DNA of 64,000 nucleotides. Origin: Chloroflexota bacterium. GTDB lineage: Bacteria; Chloroflexota; UBA6077; JACCZL01. Where the stretch lies: NCBI GenBank assembly GCA_020850535.1, contig JADZEM010000116.1, positions 45,419 through 109,418 of the forward strand, given 5' to 3'. The translations under genes and the position numbers were made by a program. The notes below the pieces were generated by a model that was not told the DNA's origin, made no database searches, and saw only the letters and a program-made list of their open reading frames with translations. Below, piece by piece: positions 16,394-35,420 of the stretch; position 1 is the first letter of the stretch; every line of letters starts with the position of its first letter.

Positions 16394-16478
16394 GGTGGGG
16401 AAGAGGGGACTTGAACCCCTACGCCTTGCGGGCACATGATCCTAAGTCATGCTCGTCTGCCAATTCCGACACTTCCCC
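16394..16478 (-). tRNA. tRNA-Leu (anticodon TAG), class II with long variable arm; CCA not fully encoded.
   Basis: Reverse complement GGGGAAGTGTCGGAATTGGCAGACGAGCATGACTTAGGATCATGTGCCCGCAAGGCGTAGGGGTTCAAGTCCCCTCTTCCCCACC. Acceptor stem GGGGAAG/CTTCCCC. Anticodon loop CTTAGGA. T-loop GGTTCAAGTCC. Confidence 0.8.
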
Positions 16479-16538: not shown

Positions 16539-16628
16539 TGGCGGAGAGGGAGGGATTCGAACCCTCGACTCCCGGAGGAGTACGCGATTTCCAGTCGCGC
16601 GCACTAGGCCAGGCTATGCGACCTCTCC
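16539..16628 (-). tRNA. tRNA-Ser (anticodon GGA), class II; CCA encoded.
   Basis: Reverse complement GGAGAGGTCGCATAGCCTGGCCTAGTGCGCGCGACTGGAAATCGCGTACTCCTCCGGGAGTCGAGGGTTCGAATCCCTCCCTCTCCGCCA. Anticodon loop CTGGAAA. Long variable arm. T-loop GGTTCGAATCC. Confidence 0.8.
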
Positions 16629-28508: not shown

Positions 28509-29033
28509 CTGAGTACCCCGAGCACGCCGCCTGCGAAGCGGCTCGCAATCTACCCGGGCACGTTTGACCCGGTCCACAACGGTCACGTCGACATCGCGCG
28601 GCGGGCGGCGCTGCTGTTCGACGAGTTGATCGTTGCCGTCTATGACCGGCCAGCCAAGTCGCTGCTGTTCAGCCCGGAGGAGCGGATCAAGTTGGCGCGG
28701 CAGAGCATCGGCGACGGCAGCCCGCACGGGCGGATCATCGTCGAGGGCTACTCCGGGCTGACGGTGAAGTACGCGCGCAAGCGGGGCGCTTGCGCCATCG
28801 TGCGCGGCCTGCGTGCCGTCAGCGACTTCGACTACGAGTACCAGATGACGATTATGAACCGTCACCTGGAGTCGGACATCGAGACGCTGTTCCTGATGAC
28901 CTCGCTGCGGTTCGCGTACCTCAGCTCCAGCCGCCTCAAGGAAGTGGCGAGCGGCGGCGCGGAGATCGACGATCTGGTCCCATCGTCGGTGGCAGCCGCG
29001 CTGCGCGAGCGCTACGAGCGAGCGCACTCATGA
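28509..29033 (+). CDS. coaD: Phosphopantetheine adenylyltransferase.
   Basis: ...KRLAIYPGTFDPVHNGHVDIARRAALLFDELIVAV...RGLRAVSDFDYEYQMTIMNRHL. The homologous N-terminus lies upstream of the first in-frame TTG (28626). There is no ATG/GTG/TTG between the in-frame stop at 28491 and 28626. CTG 28509, preceded by GGAGGA, is the proposed start, but it is uncertain. Confidence 0.7.
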   Translation: MSTPSTPPAKRLAIYPGTFDPVHNGHVDIARRAALLFDELIVAVYDRPAKSLLFSPEERIKLARQSIGDGSPHGRIIVEGYSGLTVKYARKRGACAIVRGLRAVSDFDYEYQMTIMNRHLESDIETLFLMTSLRFAYLSSSRLKEVASGGAEIDDLVPSSVAAALRERYERAHS

Positions 29034-29527
29034 CCGGCGAGCCGATGTCCGACGCTGAAGCCGGAGCCGTCGACTTCATGTACCTGCTCGACCGGCTCGA
29101 AGAGACGCTGGTGACCGGCTCGCGCGTGCCACTGATGGCGCGCACCCTGGTAGACGAGCAGGAGTGCCTGGACATCCTGGATCAGCTTCGCGTCGCCATG
29201 CCGAACGAGATCAAGGAGGCCCGGCGGATCATCGCCGAGCGCGACCACCTCCTGGCCCAGGCCCGCGAGGAGACGGAGCGGATCATCCGTGGCGCTGAGA
29301 ACCGCGCGAACCGCATGATCGACGAGCACGCGGTGGTGCGCGGCGCGCAGAACCGCGCCAACCAGATCGAGGAGCAGGCTGAGCGCGAATCACAGCAGGT
29401 GCGCGAGGAGGCCGAGCAGTACGCCGAGACCGTGCTGTCCCGGGTTCAGGAGCGGCTGGAACAGGCGTTGACGAACGTTCGCACCGGTCTGCGCGAGCTT
29501 GAGGCCGGCGACCGCGCACCGCGATAG
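29030..29527 (+). CDS. Coiled-coil protein of unknown function, overlapping the coaD stop (ATGA).
   Basis: 165 aa, highly charged helical sequence (EIKEARRIIAERDHLLAQAREETERIIRGAENRANRMIDEHAV...). It is reminiscent of ATP-synthase-b-like or DivIVA-like coiled coils, but no specific assignment is possible. Confidence 0.5.
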   Translation: MTGEPMSDAEAGAVDFMYLLDRLEETLVTGSRVPLMARTLVDEQECLDILDQLRVAMPNEIKEARRIIAERDHLLAQAREETERIIRGAENRANRMIDEHAVVRGAQNRANQIEEQAERESQQVREEAEQYAETVLSRVQERLEQALTNVRTGLRELEAGDRAPR

Positions 29528-29732
29528 CGCGTCAGCCGGCCCGGCGAGCGCAGTTTCGCCATATGTCAGCCACGACCGCCGGGTTTTCCCTCAGGGCACG
29601 TATATAATTGCCGCCACTTGAGCCCCCGGGCAGCATGTTCGTCCGACTCCCGCGCGACGACTCGGCACGGCCACCTCGCGCCCCTCGGACGCTCGGCGAC
29701 CTCGGCTCCAACGTTCTGAACGGACGGGCCAG

Positions 29733-30458
29733 ATGCACGTCGTCGTCAATCAGAAGCTGATCACCACCCGTGTCAGGTTCGCCAGCGCGGCGCATCTCGG
29801 CGCACTCGCCGTGTTCGCCGTGGGGCTCTACATCTCCTGGTCGAACCCCGAGCCGTCGCTCGAACAGATGGGCATGGCCTACGGGGCCATCATCATCGGC
29901 CTGATCCTCTACAACGTCGGGCAGGTCTTCCTGCGGCGGTTCGGGCCGCGCAACCGGCAGGATGCCGTCCTGGTCAAGACGCTCAAGAGCCTGGACCGAC
30001 GGTTCCACTTCGTCGCCTTCGCCTCCACGAAGCTGCCCGACTATCTGCTCGTCGGGCCAGCCGGCATCCAGGTGATCGTGACGCGGACGCACGACGGCAG
30101 CATCTCCTGCCGCTCGAACACCTGGAGTCGCGACGCGGGGTCGGGGTTCAAGCGGCTCAGCGGCCTGTTCGGCGGGCAGCCGTTCGGCGATCCGGGCGAG
30201 GATGCCGCGAAGGCCATCGCCAGCGTCCGCAAGAAGCTGGCTGAGGGTGGCATCCCCGAGACAAGCCAGCCGCCCGTCGACGCGGTCATCGCGTTCACCA
30301 ACCCGGCCGCCAAACTACGGATCGACGGCAGCACCTACCCCGTCACCAACCTCAAGGGCCTGCGCGGAACGATTCGCGGCGGGGGCGGCAAGGCATCGCG
30401 CGACCGTGCGCTTGACGAGCGGGCGGCCGAGCGGGTGGTGCAGGCGCTCACGGGATGA
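29733..30458 (+). CDS. NERD (nuclease-related) domain membrane protein.
   Basis: 241 aa. Two N-terminal TM helices, then FHFVAFASTKLPDYLLVGPAGIQVIVTRTHDG, which resembles the NERD core. A -10-like TATAAT is at 29604-29609 upstream. The stop overlaps the subtilase start (ATGA). Confidence 0.55.
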   Translation: MHVVVNQKLITTRVRFASAAHLGALAVFAVGLYISWSNPEPSLEQMGMAYGAIIIGLILYNVGQVFLRRFGPRNRQDAVLVKTLKSLDRRFHFVAFASTKLPDYLLVGPAGIQVIVTRTHDGSISCRSNTWSRDAGSGFKRLSGLFGGQPFGDPGEDAAKAIASVRKKLAEGGIPETSQPPVDAVIAFTNPAAKLRIDGSTYPVTNLKGLRGTIRGGGGKASRDRALDERAAERVVQALTG

Positions 30459-33058
30459 ACACCAGCGCTGCTCGCAGCCGTGGCGTCGGTGGCGGGTGGA
30501 GGCGGCTGATCGCAGCCATGCTCACCCTTGCGCTGATCGCTGGCTGCATTCCGAGCAGCGATCCAGCGGCGGAAGCGCCAGCCGGTCAGACCGCCGAGCA
30601 GGCCGACGCGGGCCTCGTTCCGGGGCACGTGGTCGTCATCGTCGGGGCCGATGCATCGCTGCCGGCGGTCCTGGACGACGCGATCGGCGGAAGCATTCGC
30701 CTCCTCGACACGCTCCCCGAGCTGCGGGCTGCCGTCCTTGGCGTGCCGCTCGGGCGGGAGGCGGCGGCCATCGCACAGCTCCAGCACGATCCACGGATCG
30801 TGAGCGCCCAGCGGAGCGCCGTCCTCAGCACGCTGACGGTCCCCGATGACCCGATCTACAAGGAGTTTCAGTGGGGCGTCCGCAAGATCGGCATGGAGAC
30901 CGTCTGGGATGTCACCACCGGCAGCCCTGATGTGATCGTGGCGGTGCTCGACACTGGCGTGGACGAGGCCCACCCCGACCTTGAGCCGAACGTCATCGAC
31001 GGCTACGACTTCGTGAACGACGACCCGGACGCCTGGGACGACTCGTCGCACGGGACGCATGTGGCGGGCGTCATCGCCGCCGTCGGCGACAACGACGAGG
31101 GGACGGCCGGCATGACGTGGCGCTCCAAGATCATGCCGATCAAGGTGCTGGACGCGAAAGGCCTGGGACCGGACGCTGCCGTCTCTAAGGGCATCATCTA
31201 CGCCGTCGAGAACAAGGCGCGGATCATCAACCTCTCGTCCGGGACGCCGTATCAGTCGAAACTGCTGGACGACGCCGTCAAGTTTGCTGAGCGCCGTGGC
31301 GTGCTGGTCGTCGCGGCGGCCGGCAACACCGGCGACAAGGGCAACGAGGTCATCTACCCGGCCGCGTACGCGAATGTACTGGCCGTGGGAGCCACCGACG
31401 AGAAGGACCAGGCGCCGCCATTCTCCCAGCGGCAGCCGTATGTGGCCATCGCGGCCCCCGGCGTCGATATCCCTGGGCCAGCGTGGCGCGACGCCGGCAA
31501 CGGCCCCTACATCCTGCACACCGGCACCTCGGCGGCGGCCCCACACGTCTCCGGCCTCGCAGCCCTGCTGCTCTCGATCCAGCCGACGCTCTCGCCCCAG
31601 CAGATCCGAGACATCATCATCGGCACGGCGGATCAGGTGAACCCACGCTCGCGAGATGCTTTCCTGGGCGCGGGACGCATCAACGCCCTGAAGGCGGTCA
31701 ACTCGCTGCGCCCGATTCCCGTGCCGACGCGCCCGGTCATCCGCCCGACGGCCACGCCCGAGCGGCTGCCAGGGACGCCAGCCGTGCCGCAGGCGCCACG
31801 TATCGTCCTGCCGTCGATCAAGCCGCTGCCACAGCCTGGCCCGCTTCCGGAGGAGCCGATCTCCTGGTTCTTCGCCGAGGGCAACACCACGGCCGGCTTC
31901 GAGACCTGGCTGACCATTCAGAACCCGATGCCCGCGCCGGCCTCGGCGCGCGTGACGTTCATGACCCAGGATGGACCGGTCGCACGGCAGACCGTCGTGG
32001 TGCCGCCCAGCTCCCGCAAGAGCCTGCACGTCAACGAGATCGTGCCGGGCGCGCTGGTGGCGACGCGGGTCGACTCCAACACGCCTGTCTTCGCCGAGCG
32101 CACGGTGTACTTCGGGCACGACGCCATCGGCGGCATCGGCACGCGGTCCGGCGCGCGCTCGTGGTACCTCGCCGAAGGCTCGACGCAGCCGCCGTTTGAC
32201 ACCTGGATTCTCCTGCTGAACCCGAACGACGAGGAGACCGTCGCCCACCTGACGTTCATGCTGGAGAACGGCGGGACCATCGAGGCCACCCAGCCGCTGC
32301 CGCCGCAATCTCGCGTCAGCTTCGACTCGAACGATGTCATCGAGTCGGCCGGGTTCGCCACCGAAGTCCGCGCCGATCTACCCATCGTGGTCGAGCGGTC
32401 GATGTACTTCGGGTCCGGCGGCGGCCACGGGACCATCGGCGTCAAGACGCCCGGCAAGACCTGGTTCCTGGCCGAGGGCGACAGCCGCCCGGGCGTGGAC
32501 ACCTGGATCCTGCTCCAGAACCCGAGCGCCACCGACGTCGCCAACGTCTCCGTCACGTTCATCAAGGACGACGGCACGACCGAGGTCGCCTACTACGCGC
32601 TCGATCCACGCACGCGCTTGAGCCTGTTCGCCGATACCGTGGTGCCGAACACGACGTTCGGGGCGCGCATCGACGCCGACCAGCAGATCATCGTCGAGCG
32701 GTCGATCTACCTCGCCAACGGGGCGGGCGGGCATGCATCAGCCGCCGTGCAGATCCCCGAGACGGAGTGGTTTCTGCCGGAGGGGAGCACTCGCGCCCCC
32801 TACCGTGAGATCATCGCCATCCTGAACCCCAGCCCCGAGCAGACGCAGGTGGACTTGACGTTCACCCAGCCGGACGGGCAGCCGCCCGTCACCCAGAGCT
32901 TCGTCATGGAGCCGACGAGCCGCCTGTCCGTCGAGGCCAACAAGTACGTGCCGGACGCCGACATCTCGACCCGGGTGATCGCAGACCACCCGGTCGTGGT
33001 GGAGCGGTCGATGTACTGGGAGCGCGGGGCGACCAGCTCGCCCGGCCTGACCCGATAG
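30455..33058 (+). CDS. S8 subtilisin-like serine peptidase lipoprotein with five tandem ~100-aa C-terminal repeat domains.
   Basis: 867 aa. Lipobox LALIAGC. Catalytic triad contexts VAVLDTGVDEAHPDL, HGTHVAGVIAA, GTSAAAPHVSGLAALL. After a Pro-rich linker, there are 5 repeats each starting W[FY][FL][AP]EG.T and containing TW[IL].[IL].NP. Confidence 0.85.
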   Translation: MNTSAARSRGVGGGWRRLIAAMLTLALIAGCIPSSDPAAEAPAGQTAEQADAGLVPGHVVVIVGADASLPAVLDDAIGGSIRLLDTLPELRAAVLGVPLGREAAAIAQLQHDPRIVSAQRSAVLSTLTVPDDPIYKEFQWGVRKIGMETVWDVTTGSPDVIVAVLDTGVDEAHPDLEPNVIDGYDFVNDDPDAWDDSSHGTHVAGVIAAVGDNDEGTAGMTWRSKIMPIKVLDAKGLGPDAAVSKGIIYAVENKARIINLSSGTPYQSKLLDDAVKFAERRGVLVVAAAGNTGDKGNEVIYPAAYANVLAVGATDEKDQAPPFSQRQPYVAIAAPGVDIPGPAWRDAGNGPYILHTGTSAAAPHVSGLAALLLSIQPTLSPQQIRDIIIGTADQVNPRSRDAFLGAGRINALKAVNSLRPIPVPTRPVIRPTATPERLPGTPAVPQAPRIVLPSIKPLPQPGPLPEEPISWFFAEGNTTAGFETWLTIQNPMPAPASARVTFMTQDGPVARQTVVVPPSSRKSLHVNEIVPGALVATRVDSNTPVFAERTVYFGHDAIGGIGTRSGARSWYLAEGSTQPPFDTWILLLNPNDEETVAHLTFMLENGGTIEATQPLPPQSRVSFDSNDVIESAGFATEVRADLPIVVERSMYFGSGGGHGTIGVKTPGKTWFLAEGDSRPGVDTWILLQNPSATDVANVSVTFIKDDGTTEVAYYALDPRTRLSLFADTVVPNTTFGARIDADQQIIVERSIYLANGAGGHASAAVQIPETEWFLPEGSTRAPYREIIAILNPSPEQTQVDLTFTQPDGQPPVTQSFVMEPTSRLSVEANKYVPDADISTRVIADHPVVVERSMYWERGATSSPGLTR

Positions 33059-33450: not shown

Positions 33451-33723
33451 ATGGCTCATCACTTCAACGTGCGCTGCATGCTGTGTGGCCGAAACGCCGG
33501 ACTCGTTCGCGCGGGCGTCTTCCATCGACTGCCGGACACTCCACCCCTGACCGCTCGTGGCAGCCGCTCGACGTGCGGCTACTGTCGCGGGAGCCTCTAC
33601 CTCGAACCGGACAACGGCCCCGTGTCACTGGTGGCCTCAACAGCCGAGCCGCAACAGGCTCAGCCTCGACGGTCAGGCCGAGCGGCGGTCGCGCAGCAGA
33701 CGGTGCGCCGCCGCTCGGCCTGA
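33451..33723 (+). CDS. Small zinc-ribbon protein (90 aa).
   Basis: MAHHFNVRCMLCGRN...STCGYCRGSLYLE has two CxxC pairs. The RBS AGAGGGA is 7 nt upstream. The basic C-terminal tail is low complexity. Confidence 0.45.
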   Translation: MAHHFNVRCMLCGRNAGLVRAGVFHRLPDTPPLTARGSRSTCGYCRGSLYLEPDNGPVSLVASTAEPQQAQPRRSGRAAVAQQTVRRRSA

Positions 33724-33801: not shown

Positions 33802-34152
33802 GTGACCCACCGAGACGAGCTGGAAGTCCAGGCCCGCGAGCAGGCCGATGTGCTGCTGGAGTACCTCGTCCAGCGGTCGGAACAGGTCGAGTATCGCCAG
33901 GGCACCTACCTGTTGGCCGCGCTGGCCGCCGAGCTTGGCGGCATCGTGCAGCGGCGCTGCTGGGAGTTGGCGAAGGAGGGCGATCCGTCCTGGGAGATGG
34001 CGGCCGGCGAGGCCGAGACGCTGATCAACGCCGCCTGGCGCTGTATGGCCTCGGTGGATGGCCTGATCGAGCAGGACGCCCGCCGCATCCGCGAGCAGGA
34101 GGCCCGGCTCGAACGGGAGCGCCAGCAGCGCGGCGACGAGCCCCCGCACTGA
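33802..34152 (+). CDS. Hypothetical protein (116 aa), helical and charged.
   Basis: GTG start. It has high GC3 in frame and a non-repetitive composition (EYLVQRSEQVEYRQGTYLLAALAAELGGIVQRRCWELAKEGDPSWEM...). The antisense 200-aa ORF is Arg/Gly-rich and was judged spurious. Confidence 0.45.
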   Translation: MTHRDELEVQAREQADVLLEYLVQRSEQVEYRQGTYLLAALAAELGGIVQRRCWELAKEGDPSWEMAAGEAETLINAAWRCMASVDGLIEQDARRIREQEARLERERQQRGDEPPH

Positions 34153-34250: not shown

Positions 34251-34532
34251 GTGAGCAGCAACAATCTCGCATCACCCTCCGAATCTACTCCCGACTTCTC
34301 GGTGCAGATTTCGCTCGGGCCGATCATTGCCGAAGGGCGCGTCCTGGACGCCGTCGCCGGCCGTGACCTGTGCGGAACCCTGGACGATATCGCGGACGCG
34401 CTCGGGATCAGCTACGGCGATCTCCGAACCGCGCTCGACGAGCTGGTCAGCATCGGCTGGGTCTCGCTGGACCTGCGCCGCGACGGCCTGATCGTCCTGA
34501 GCCTCCCAGAAGACGCCCGCGCCGCTAGCTGA
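34251..34532 (+). CDS. Hypothetical small protein (93 aa), possible winged-helix fold.
   Basis: GTG start. RVLDAVAGRDLCGTLDDIADALGISYGDLRTALDELVSIGWVSLD is HTH-like. Confidence 0.4.
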   Translation: MSSNNLASPSESTPDFSVQISLGPIIAEGRVLDAVAGRDLCGTLDDIADALGISYGDLRTALDELVSIGWVSLDLRRDGLIVLSLPEDARAAS

Positions 34533-34569: not shown

Positions 34570-35283
34570 CTACCGGGGGATCGGGCTGCCTGGCGCCGCG
34601 TCCGGGATGACCAGGCGCTCGCCGATCCGAAGAATTCGGTTCCGATCCGTGAAGCCGTTCGCCTGCATGATCGCGTCGATGGTGACGCCGTAGCGCTGCG
34701 CGATCCGGTTCAGCGTATCGCCACCCTCCACGACGTGCACCCGCTGCTGCGGCGGCGATGCCACGCTCGACGCGGGCGATGGGGACGGCGACGGAACCAG
34801 GAACGGCGGCGGACTGGAGATCGGGTTCGGGCTGGCGATGGCCGTCGTGCCGGCGGCGACCGGCGTTGGCGTGCCGCTGGCCGTGGACGACCCGGACGAG
34901 TCGAACACCCAGCGCAGCGTGAAGAACAGCACCACCACGCCGACCAGCAGGACGCCAGCCAGAATCCAGGTGTAGGCGCTCATGGCGGCACGGTCGTTGC
35001 GGCCACGGCCAGCCCGCGCCGGCCGGGAACCGCCCATCGGGCGTGCCGCTCCCACGGGCACAGCCTGCGCGCGAAGTCCAGGACGACGGCCAATAGCAGG
35101 ACGCCGCGCTGGCTGGCGAGTCTGGCCCCTGGCGCCTCCCATCAGGCGCGCGCGGACCTTCTCGATCCACTCGCGAGCTTGATCGACGAGGTCTCCGCCG
35201 GTCGAACTCATTGGCGGCACGCGCTCCTCCCCGGCTGTGGAACCGTCGAACCCGGCCGCTGGGCGACCTGGAGCGTGGCGCAT
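34570..35283 (-). CDS. LysM domain membrane protein.
   Basis: C-terminal Lys[47 protein letters not shown]. Single [18 protein letters not shown]. Pro/Ser-rich linker. An alternative start is at 35211. Confidence 0.6.
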
Positions 35284-35420
35284 TATACGTCAACTGCGAT
35301 CAGCCGTCCTGGACCGCACCGGGGAAATCGGTCATCCGGCCGACCCAGCGAGGCAAAATCGCGTCAGGGGCGACGCCTTCGCTGGCATCCACGGCCCCCG
35401 ACGCGGCACAGCTGTGCGCG

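What the first reader, a model, noticed from the sequence alone, without database searches (positions are those of the whole stretch)
29733..33058. Translationally coupled NERD-domain membrane protein and lipoprotein subtilase
The NERD gene stop overlaps the S8 peptidase start (ATGA at 30455-30458). A TATAAT-like box lies about 120 nt upstream of the NERD gene. NERD (nuclease-related) domains occur in stress/defense contexts, and pairing with a large cell-surface subtilase is not a described system. The NERD motif here (LLVGPAGIQVIVTRTHDG) appears divergent at the usual acidic/lysine positions, so it may be non-catalytic.
Basis: partly seen in the sequence, partly recalled or inferred. Interest (0 to 1): 0.5.

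Follow-up and report, generated by a model that had tools for sequence, protein, structure and literature searches.

The report
Membrane pseudo-nuclease and secreted protease operon
A Chloroflexota gene for a membrane-tethered, apparently inactive nuclease-fold (NERD-like) protein is followed, with overlapping stop and start codons, by a gene for an active secreted subtilisin-type protease; the pair is conserved across a whole subclade, but it looks like an envelope-related operon and not a new nuclease-protease or defence system.

Summary
A 241-aa ORF (29733-30458) and an 867-aa S8 peptidase ORF (30455-33058) overlap by ATGA. A TATAAT box lies 125 nt upstream; it is one of only two in the 64-kb window.

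The 241-aa protein scores just below Pfam's NERD threshold (20.8 vs 22.1 bits). However, 38 of 75 members of its family hit NERD (best E = 7e-11). A confident model also has the PD-(D/E)xK restriction-endonuclease fold. The E and K of the ExK motif are V116 and R118, and these positions vary across the family, so the domain is probably non-catalytic. Predicted topology is N-in, with a two-helix membrane hairpin and a cytoplasmic domain.

The family has at least 1553 cluster representatives. All named members are Chloroflexota. Its ancestral neighbour is plsX/fabF, not a protease. The S8 link arose once, in one subclade. In that subclade S8 lies directly downstream in 22 of 24 informative loci and two genes away in three more. 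It was lost twice. The pair stayed together when it moved away from plsX.

The protease keeps its D/H/N/S catalytic residues. It carries a propeptide and four DUF5719 repeats, which are also found on other secreted hydrolases. Its lipobox is not conserved among orthologues. There are no defence signatures. Function is unproven; SmdA of S. aureus is the closest characterised analogue.

The parts
29600..29610 (+). Conserved -10 promoter element GTATATAATTG (TATAAT at 29603-29608), followed by a leader of about 125 nt
   Evidence: Unique in the window. Identical in L001 and L002. -10-like boxes occur in L003, L004 and L007. TTGACG-N17/18-GATAAT occurs in L008-L013 and L017. No Rfam family matches the leader.
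29733..30458 (+). Gene for the 241-aa 2-TM NERD-like (PD-(D/E)xK-fold) membrane protein
   Evidence: ORF. 116 homologues, all Chloroflexota or metagenomic. Family of 1553 representatives. AF2 model with pLDDT 90.9.
29751..29942 (+). Transmembrane helical hairpin (residues 7-37 and 43-70) with a 5-residue outer turn (NPEPS). Basic residues on both flanks imply N-in topology and a cytoplasmic C-terminal domain.
   Evidence: DSSP on the model. Positive-inside rule applied to the sequence (K8, R13, R15; R68, R69, R73, R75).
29961..30452 (+). Cytoplasmic NERD-like restriction-endonuclease-fold domain (residues 77-240). The catalytic-motif equivalents are D103, V116 and R118.
30455..30458 (+). ATGA stop/start overlap
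   Evidence: The same overlap is confirmed in L001, L002 and L004; tblastn coordinates in L022 and L023 are consistent with it.
30455..33058 (+). Gene for the 867-aa S8 serine peptidase precursor
   Evidence: Peptidase_S8 E 4.5e-61. D166/H199/N259/S359 are invariant in 12 orthologues.
30455..30547 (+). Signal peptide with lipobox LIAG|C31
   Evidence: Read from the sequence. Cys is present only in the window, L002 and L007; the other orthologues have ordinary signal peptides.
30578..30808 (+). Fervidolysin-type N-terminal propeptide (residues 42-118)
   Evidence: PF22148, 21.1 bits against a cut-off of 21.
30929..31675 (+). S8 catalytic domain (residues 159-407)
   Evidence: PF00082, 207 bits.
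31865..33055 (+). Four tandem ~100-aa DUF5719-type repeats (residues 471-569, 570-669, 670-771, 772-867)
   Evidence: PF18986 E 4.7e-13. Repeat alignment. The same module is fused to GH18, CAP, NlpC/P60 and IPT/TIG proteins.

Best explanation
This is a conserved two-gene operon of a Chloroflexota subclade, read from its own sigma-70-type promoter. Gene 1 encodes a core, phylum-wide inner-membrane protein. It has an N-in two-helix hairpin and a cytoplasmic NERD/PD-(D/E)xK-fold domain that has lost the catalytic acid and lysine. It therefore most likely acts as a membrane-tethered binding or scaffold module, not as a nuclease. Its ancestral operon partners are plsX and fabF, which points to membrane and envelope biogenesis. 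Gene 2 encodes an active S8 protease. It is exported as a propeptide-containing zymogen, is lipid-anchored in this genome, and carries four DUF5719 repeats that probably hold it on the cell surface or on its substrate. The S8 gene became linked to gene 1 once, while gene 1 was still in the plsX-fabF context. It then tightened to direct adjacency or a 4-nt overlap and has since travelled with gene 1. Its synthesis is therefore tied, transcriptionally and probably translationally, to a housekeeping membrane protein. The two products are predicted to sit on opposite faces of the membrane, so the link is best read as co-expression within envelope maintenance or remodelling, not a joint catalytic mechanism. 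Shown here: gene structure, conservation, fold, loss of catalytic residues, an intact protease active site, and the evolutionary order of events. Inferred: topology, co-transcription, translational coupling, and the envelope role.
Against: There are no expression data, so co-transcription and coupling are inferred from spacing only. No experiment or structure shows what the NERD-like domain binds. D77 and D103 are retained in this protein and R118 could partly replace K, so residual activity is not excluded. The envelope role rests on neighbourhood (plsX, fabF, LysM) and on analogy with SmdA, which was not shown here to be a specific relative. The S8 gene was lost in L005 and L006 with gene 1 retained, so the link is dispensable. 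The two main genomic contexts of the pair share a downstream Zn-ribbon gene, so part of the adjacency could be inherited synteny and not selection.
Confidence: 0.55

Rival explanations
1. Dedicated physical partnership. The 2-TM hairpin of the NERD-like protein binds the S8 precursor (its signal peptide or lipid anchor) at the membrane and controls its export, anchoring or activation. The cytoplasmic pseudo-nuclease domain acts as a sensor, which would make the pair a trans-membrane regulatory module.
For: Adjacency is tight, with an overlap or a gap of at most 30 nt across 32-100 % protein identity, and the pair was retained after leaving the plsX-fabF context. SmdA interacts with extracytoplasmic PBPs through its TM segment and pulls down secretion and folding factors.
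Against: The outer loop is only about 5 residues. The S8 membrane anchor (lipobox) is present in only 3 of 12 orthologues. Most of the family lives without any S8 neighbour. S8 was lost twice without loss of gene 1. No clade-specific conserved surface was identified.
Confidence: 0.2
2. Pure hitch-hiking. The S8 gene merely landed downstream of a constitutively expressed housekeeping gene and uses its promoter. There is no functional relationship between the two proteins.
For: S8 is dispensable in L005 and L006. DUF5719-bearing secreted enzymes are numerous and modular. ATGA overlaps are common in any operon (general knowledge). Part of the downstream synteny (the Zn-ribbon gene) is shared between contexts.
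Against: The linkage persisted through at least two relocations and from 'two genes away' to a 4-nt overlap. Among informative loci of the subclade only 2 lack S8.
Confidence: 0.2
3. Anti-phage or stress defence module in which a NERD nuclease effector works with a protease.
For: NERD and PD-(D/E)xK domains and S8 peptidases (IetS) do occur in defence systems. The S8 catalytic domain weakly hits the PADLOC subtilase and IetS models.
Against: The NERD-like protein has no PADLOC hit, and the S8 hits cover only the generic catalytic domain. The catalytic ExK is lost. Neighbours are housekeeping genes (rsmD, coaD, plsX, fabF). GC is uniform. Inheritance is vertical. The protease is secreted while the nuclease-fold domain is cytoplasmic.
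Confidence: 0.03

Closest known systems
NERD domain family (Pfam PF08378; Grynberg & Godzik 2004), a branch of the PD-(D/E)xK phosphodiesterase superfamily
   Different: This protein scores below the gathering threshold. The E and K of ExK are V and R, and these positions are not conserved in the family. There is a fixed 2-TM hairpin plus an N-terminal strand that packs into the domain. Distribution is restricted to Chloroflexota among named members.
SmdA of Staphylococcus aureus (PMC9040797)
   Same: A membrane-anchored cytoplasmic domain with only partial NERD similarity, lacking several canonical NERD residues. It works as a non-nuclease envelope and division factor through protein contacts, including contacts made by its TM segment.
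   Different: SmdA has one TM helix and 302 aa, is monocistronic, and is restricted to Staphylococcaceae. No specific sequence relationship to the Chloroflexota family was tested here. SmdA has no protease partner.
Mycosin (T7SS-associated S8 protease, TIGR03921) and other cell-envelope subtilases
   Same: The best NCBIfam match of the S8 domain (226 bits). Both are exported, envelope-associated S8 proteases with a classical D/H/S triad.
   Different: Below the family cut-off of 278.75 bits. It has no C-terminal TM anchor and no ESX genes nearby. Instead it has a fervidolysin-type propeptide and four DUF5719 repeats.
DUF5719-bearing secreted enzymes of Chloroflexota and Actinomycetota (GH18, CAP, NlpC/P60, IPT/TIG fusions)
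   Same: They share the same C-terminal repeat module at 33-47 % identity.
   Different: The catalytic head is an S8 protease, and the gene is linked to the 2-TM NERD-like gene.

Membership tests
NERD (PF08378) | Score at or above Pfam's gathering threshold (22.1 bits) | tested here: not met
   The window protein scores 20.8 bits, E 5.8e-4. At family level, 17/25 members hit at E<=0.1 and 38/75 at E<=0.01, best 7.1e-11. Homology is therefore supported by transitivity, although this protein fails on its own.
NERD (PF08378) | PD-(D/E)xK (restriction-endonuclease-like) alpha/beta fold | tested here: met
NERD (PF08378) | Catalytic D ... (D/E)xK residues | tested here: not met
   D103 is present, but the E position is V116 and the K position is R118. 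Across 75 family members position 116 is E in only 7, and position 103 is D/E in 31. The register was assigned from the members that keep (D/E)H...ExR and from my recollection of the NERD consensus. There was no residue-level alignment to the Pfam HMM.
SmdA-like membrane NERD proteins | N-terminal membrane anchor plus a cytoplasmic degenerate NERD domain | tested here: met
   Model and sequence. It has two TM helices instead of one.
SmdA-like membrane NERD proteins | Specific sequence relationship to SmdA; role in division and wall synthesis | not tested
Subtilase S8 (PF00082) | HMM above threshold and an intact Asp/His/Ser triad with the oxyanion Asn | tested here: met
   207 bits. D166, H199, N259 and S359 are invariant in 12 orthologues.
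T7SS mycosin (TIGR03921) | Equivalog cut-off of 278.75 bits, a C-terminal TM anchor, and an ESX locus | tested here: not met
   226 bits. The C-terminus is DUF5719 repeats. No ESX genes were seen among the neighbours.
Bacterial lipoprotein | Lipobox [LVI][ASTVI][GAS]C at the end of the signal peptide | tested here: met
   L27-I-A-G-C31 in the window protein. However, Cys is present in only 3 of 12 orthologues. Processing is not testable here.
Known anti-phage defence systems (PADLOC-DB v2) | Match of the component proteins to system models, and a defence-island context | tested here: not met
   No hit for the NERD-like protein. S8 matches only the generic subtilase and IetS catalytic region. 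The context is housekeeping genes.
DUF5719 (PF18986) | HMM above the gathering threshold | tested here: met
   49.4 bits against a cut-off of 26.2. Four repeats.

The most novel reading that the evidence does not exclude
The 2-TM NERD-like protein is a Chloroflexota-specific pseudo-nuclease that organises membrane and envelope biogenesis. It would be ancestrally coupled to PlsX, for instance by tethering or regulating phospholipid synthesis at the membrane. In one subclade it would have been co-opted as the dedicated inner-membrane partner that controls export, anchoring or activation of a surface S8 protease. That would be a new type of pseudo-nuclease-based trans-membrane control of an extracellular protease.
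Probability: 0.12. Interest if true: 0.55.

Novelty: new variant of a known kind. Interest (0 to 1): 0.3.

Why it matters
If the reading is right, the finding defines a large, unannotated, phylum-wide family: at least 1553 cluster representatives, none with a precomputed Pfam domain among the 116 homologues listed. Its members are membrane-tethered, catalytically degenerate NERD-fold proteins in Chloroflexota. Their conserved partners, plsX/fabF and in one subclade a secreted S8 protease, point to membrane and envelope biology, not DNA processing. After S. aureus SmdA, this would be a second, independent case of a NERD fold recruited as a non-nuclease membrane factor. It also gives a concrete handle for studying envelope biogenesis in a poorly studied phylum. 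It does not reveal a new enzymatic mechanism or a defence system, so its value is mainly for annotation and hypothesis generation.

Tried and rejected
- Sequence search of the family profile against PDB gave only a chance-level Cas9 hit (E 0.13).
- Foldseek of the full-length model against PDB found nothing significant.
- The afdb50 fold library was unavailable.
- The search for related loci with the diverse alignment A1 failed for lack of conserved stretches, so the closer alignment A2 was used instead.
- Rfam found nothing in the 125-nt leader.
- The consensus promoter scan found no two-hexamer promoter.
- Searching papers for DUF5719 returned nothing. The NERD domain + subtilase search returned one unrelated review.
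- L019, an S8 protein with CarboxypepD_reg plus a faint DUF5719, has no NERD-like neighbour. Its upstream 222-aa ORF did not match the NERD-like family profile and appears to be a fragment of the protease N-terminus. It is therefore a paralogue and not a counter-example.
- The defence-system reading was rejected.
- The mycosin assignment was rejected.
- A second round of cluster look-ups to widen the taxonomic picture returned no organism names.
- L032 and L039 have too little downstream sequence to score for S8.
Full report
**1. The observation**

The window carries a 241-aa ORF at 29733-30458 (+) and an 867-aa ORF at 30455-33058 (+). The four bases ATGA at 30455-30458 serve as the stop of the first and the start of the second.

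A perfect TATAAT lies at 29603-29608, 125 nt upstream of the first ATG. In this ~70 % GC window TATAAT occurs only twice on both strands, against 0.34 expected from shuffles. The 11-mer GTATATAATTG is unique in the window, against 0.01 expected.

The simple two-hexamer promoter scan found nothing because the -35 is poor. However, the same GCGTATATAATTG precedes the orthologues in L001 and L002. More distant orthologues (L008-L013, L017) carry a textbook TTGACG-N17/18-GATAAT about 35 nt before the start. A promoter in front of the first gene is thus a conserved feature. The intergenic space before the protease gene is never more than about 30 nt.

A 4-nt ATGA overlap is ordinary for operons (general knowledge). 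The meaningful test is conservation of the pair.

**2. The first protein**

Pfam gives NERD (PF08378) at E 5.8e-4 and 20.8 bits, just under the gathering score of 22.1. NCBIfam gives nothing.

At family level the result is different:
- NERD is the only recurrent family among 25 homologues, hitting 17 of them at E<=0.1.
- It hits 38 of 75 members of the wider family at E<=0.01, with a best E of 7.1e-11.

The protein is therefore a divergent member of the NERD/PD-(D/E)xK superfamily.

Basic residues flank both ends of the hairpin (K8, R13, R15; R68, R69, R73, R75), and the N-terminal strand packs into the domain. This implies an N-in topology with the domain in the cytoplasm (inference from sequence and model).

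**3. Catalytic residues**

The upstream acidic residue is D103.

Across 75 diverse family members:
- Position 116 is hydrophobic in most and E in only 7.
- Position 118 is R (32), K (21) or Y (12).
- Position 103 is D/E in 31 and P/S/A in 34.

The few members with (D/E)H...ExR fix the register. What is conserved across the family is instead R69, W70, R75, D77, L84, K85, G86, P109, G111, G122, W131, G152, P154, D/E157 and F188.

**4. Extent and ancestral context of the family**

A full HMMER scan of 1.84 billion representatives found 1553 family members at E<=1e-3 and 702 at E<=1e-10. Nearly all of the 150 best-scoring members listed are full-length proteins of 225-255 aa. Every member that carries an organism name is from Chloroflexota. 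None of the 116 homologues listed carries a precomputed Pfam domain.

In distant members (24-28 % identity) the gene sits 6-28 nt downstream of plsX on the same strand, in four independent contexts, with no protease nearby:
- L014-16
- the P0115 contig
- L045/46 (Anaerolineaceae)
- L047

L032 has plsX upstream, and L040 and L043 have plsX-fabF upstream. The ancestral partner of this family is thus phospholipid and fatty-acid synthesis, not a protease.

**5. Conservation of the pair**

| Source | Result |
|---|---|
| 13 genome loci | 12 informative; 10 have the S8-DUF5719 gene immediately downstream, with an ATGA overlap in L001, L002 and L004 and gaps of roughly 10-30 nt in the others |
| L005, L006 | Keep the flanking synteny but lack S8 |
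| L017, L018, L020 | Pair present |
| Metagenome loci | 9 of 9 informative loci have S8 adjacent |
| L038, L040, L041 | S8 is two genes further down |

Taken together, 22 of the 24 informative loci of the S8-adjacent clades have S8 directly downstream. L040 reads plsX-fabF-NERD-like-4HBT thioesterase-OmpR-type response regulator-S8.

A neighbour-joining tree of the NERD-like proteins places the plsX-only members as the outgroup. All S8-linked members form one clade, with the 'two genes away' group basal. The S8-less L005 and L006 are nested inside it.

The simplest history is as follows. The S8 gene became a neighbour once, within the plsX-fabF context. It tightened to adjacency or overlap. 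The pair then left plsX and now occurs in two contexts: rsmD-coaD-coiled-coil | pair | Zn-ribbon-orf-HTH-LysM, and AIRS-GntR/aminotransferase | pair | RibD_C. The S8 gene was lost twice.

The contexts are not fully independent, because a small Zn-ribbon gene lies downstream in both. Identity of the two proteins falls in parallel: 73/76, 54/62, 43/45 and 32/45 % for NERD-like/S8. This indicates vertical co-inheritance.

**6. The protease**

- Peptidase_S8 scores 207 bits. A fervidolysin-type propeptide scores at threshold.
- D166/H199/N259/S359 are invariant in 12 orthologues.
- The best NCBIfam model is the T7SS mycosin, but it scores below cut-off (226 vs 278.75 bits). There is no C-terminal anchor and no ESX context.
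- The C-terminal 400 residues are four ~100-aa DUF5719 repeats.
- Homologous repeat modules are fused to GH18, CAP, NlpC/P60, IPT/TIG and other extracellular domains in Chloroflexota and Actinomycetota. This marks the module as a portable surface- or substrate-binding unit (inference).
- The window protein has a lipobox (LIAG|C31), but only 3 of 12 orthologues keep the cysteine. The rest have plain signal peptides.

**7. Defence or mobile-element reading**

PADLOC models give no hit for the NERD-like protein, and only generic catalytic-domain hits for S8. GC content is flat at 0.67-0.73 across the region. Neighbours are housekeeping genes (rsmD, coaD, SDR, LysM). Inheritance is vertical. This reading is rejected.

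**8. Mechanism**

The best-supported account is a bicistronic operon. It ties synthesis of an exported, active S8 zymogen to a core membrane protein whose cytoplasmic nuclease-fold domain is a non-catalytic binding module linked to membrane and envelope biogenesis.

The nearest characterised analogue is S. aureus SmdA. It is a membrane-anchored protein with a degenerate NERD domain that is needed for septum formation and peptidoglycan synthesis. It contacts PBPs through its TM helix and EzrA through its cytoplasmic part (PMC9040797).

A direct physical partnership between the hairpin and the S8 precursor remains possible but has three points against it: the outer loop is only 5 residues, the S8 anchoring is not conserved, and most of the family has no S8 partner. 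Pure promoter hitch-hiking is also possible, but the linkage survived relocation.

**9. Verdict**

The pair is real, conserved and undescribed. The evidence points to an ordinary operon logic joining two known kinds of protein, not a new system. The more interesting by-product is the definition of a large, unannotated, plsX-linked family of membrane pseudo-nucleases in Chloroflexota. Interest is modest (0.3).

Noticed in passing
window 33451-33723 (+): A 90-aa ORF with two CxxC pairs (Zn-ribbon-like, no Pfam hit) is conserved just downstream of the S8 gene in L001, L002, L004, L005, L007, L023, L028 and L029. It lies 3-5 kb further downstream in L008, L010-L013, L017 and L018. It is probably a real small gene that shares synteny with the pair.
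   Followed up: partly
window 35282-35287 (-): The only other TATAAT in the 64-kb window sits about 70 nt upstream of the likely true start (M25) of the LysM-domain gene (34570-35283, -). Orthologue matches begin at residues 21-27. Perfect -10 boxes seem to mark promoters in this high-GC genome.
   Followed up: partly
L014-L016, L045-L047, L032, L040, L043 and the P0115 contig: Distant members of the 2-TM NERD-like family lie 6-28 nt downstream of plsX, or of plsX-fabF, on the same strand. This is a conserved and undescribed association with phospholipid and fatty-acid synthesis genes.
   Followed up: partly
L040 952-8093: Arrangement plsX-fabF-NERD-like-4HBT thioesterase-OmpR-type response regulator-S8/DUF5719. 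It looks like an evolutionary intermediate between the plsX-linked and the S8-adjacent states.
   Followed up: yes
window 29609-29732 (+); L001, L002, L003 equivalents: The ~125-nt leader between the -10 box and the start codon has conserved blocks (GCCACT just after the -10; CGGCTC...ACG...CGGxCGGGC before the ATG). It matches no Rfam family. No structure analysis was done.
   Followed up: partly
window 29027-29527 (+): A 166-aa coiled-coil protein with sub-threshold ATP-synt_B and DivIVA similarity is conserved immediately upstream of the NERD-like gene throughout the window's subclade.
   Followed up: no
window 33802-34152 (+), 34251-34532 (+), 34570-35283 (-): A conserved trio lies downstream of the pair: a 116-aa protein with no family hit, a 93-aa protein with weak (sub-threshold) winged-helix HTH similarity, and a LysM-domain protein on the opposite strand.
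   Followed up: no
window 30335-32308 (-) and other long antisense ORFs: Long ORFs on the strand opposite the S8 gene (for example 657 aa) are shadow ORFs typical of ~70 % GC DNA, not genes.
   Followed up: no
L018 5500-7911: The S8 orthologue is called as two genes (124 aa and 636 aa), which suggests a frameshift, an assembly error or a miscalled start.
   Followed up: no
window 16396-16478 and 16542-16628 (-): Two tRNA genes are the only Rfam gathering-level hits in the window.
   Followed up: no
proteins P0117-P0236: The four-repeat DUF5719 module is a widely shared C-terminal appendage of secreted GH18, CAP, NlpC/P60, IPT/TIG and FlgD-Ig proteins in Chloroflexota and Actinomycetota. No paper in the searched library mentions DUF5719.
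   Followed up: partly
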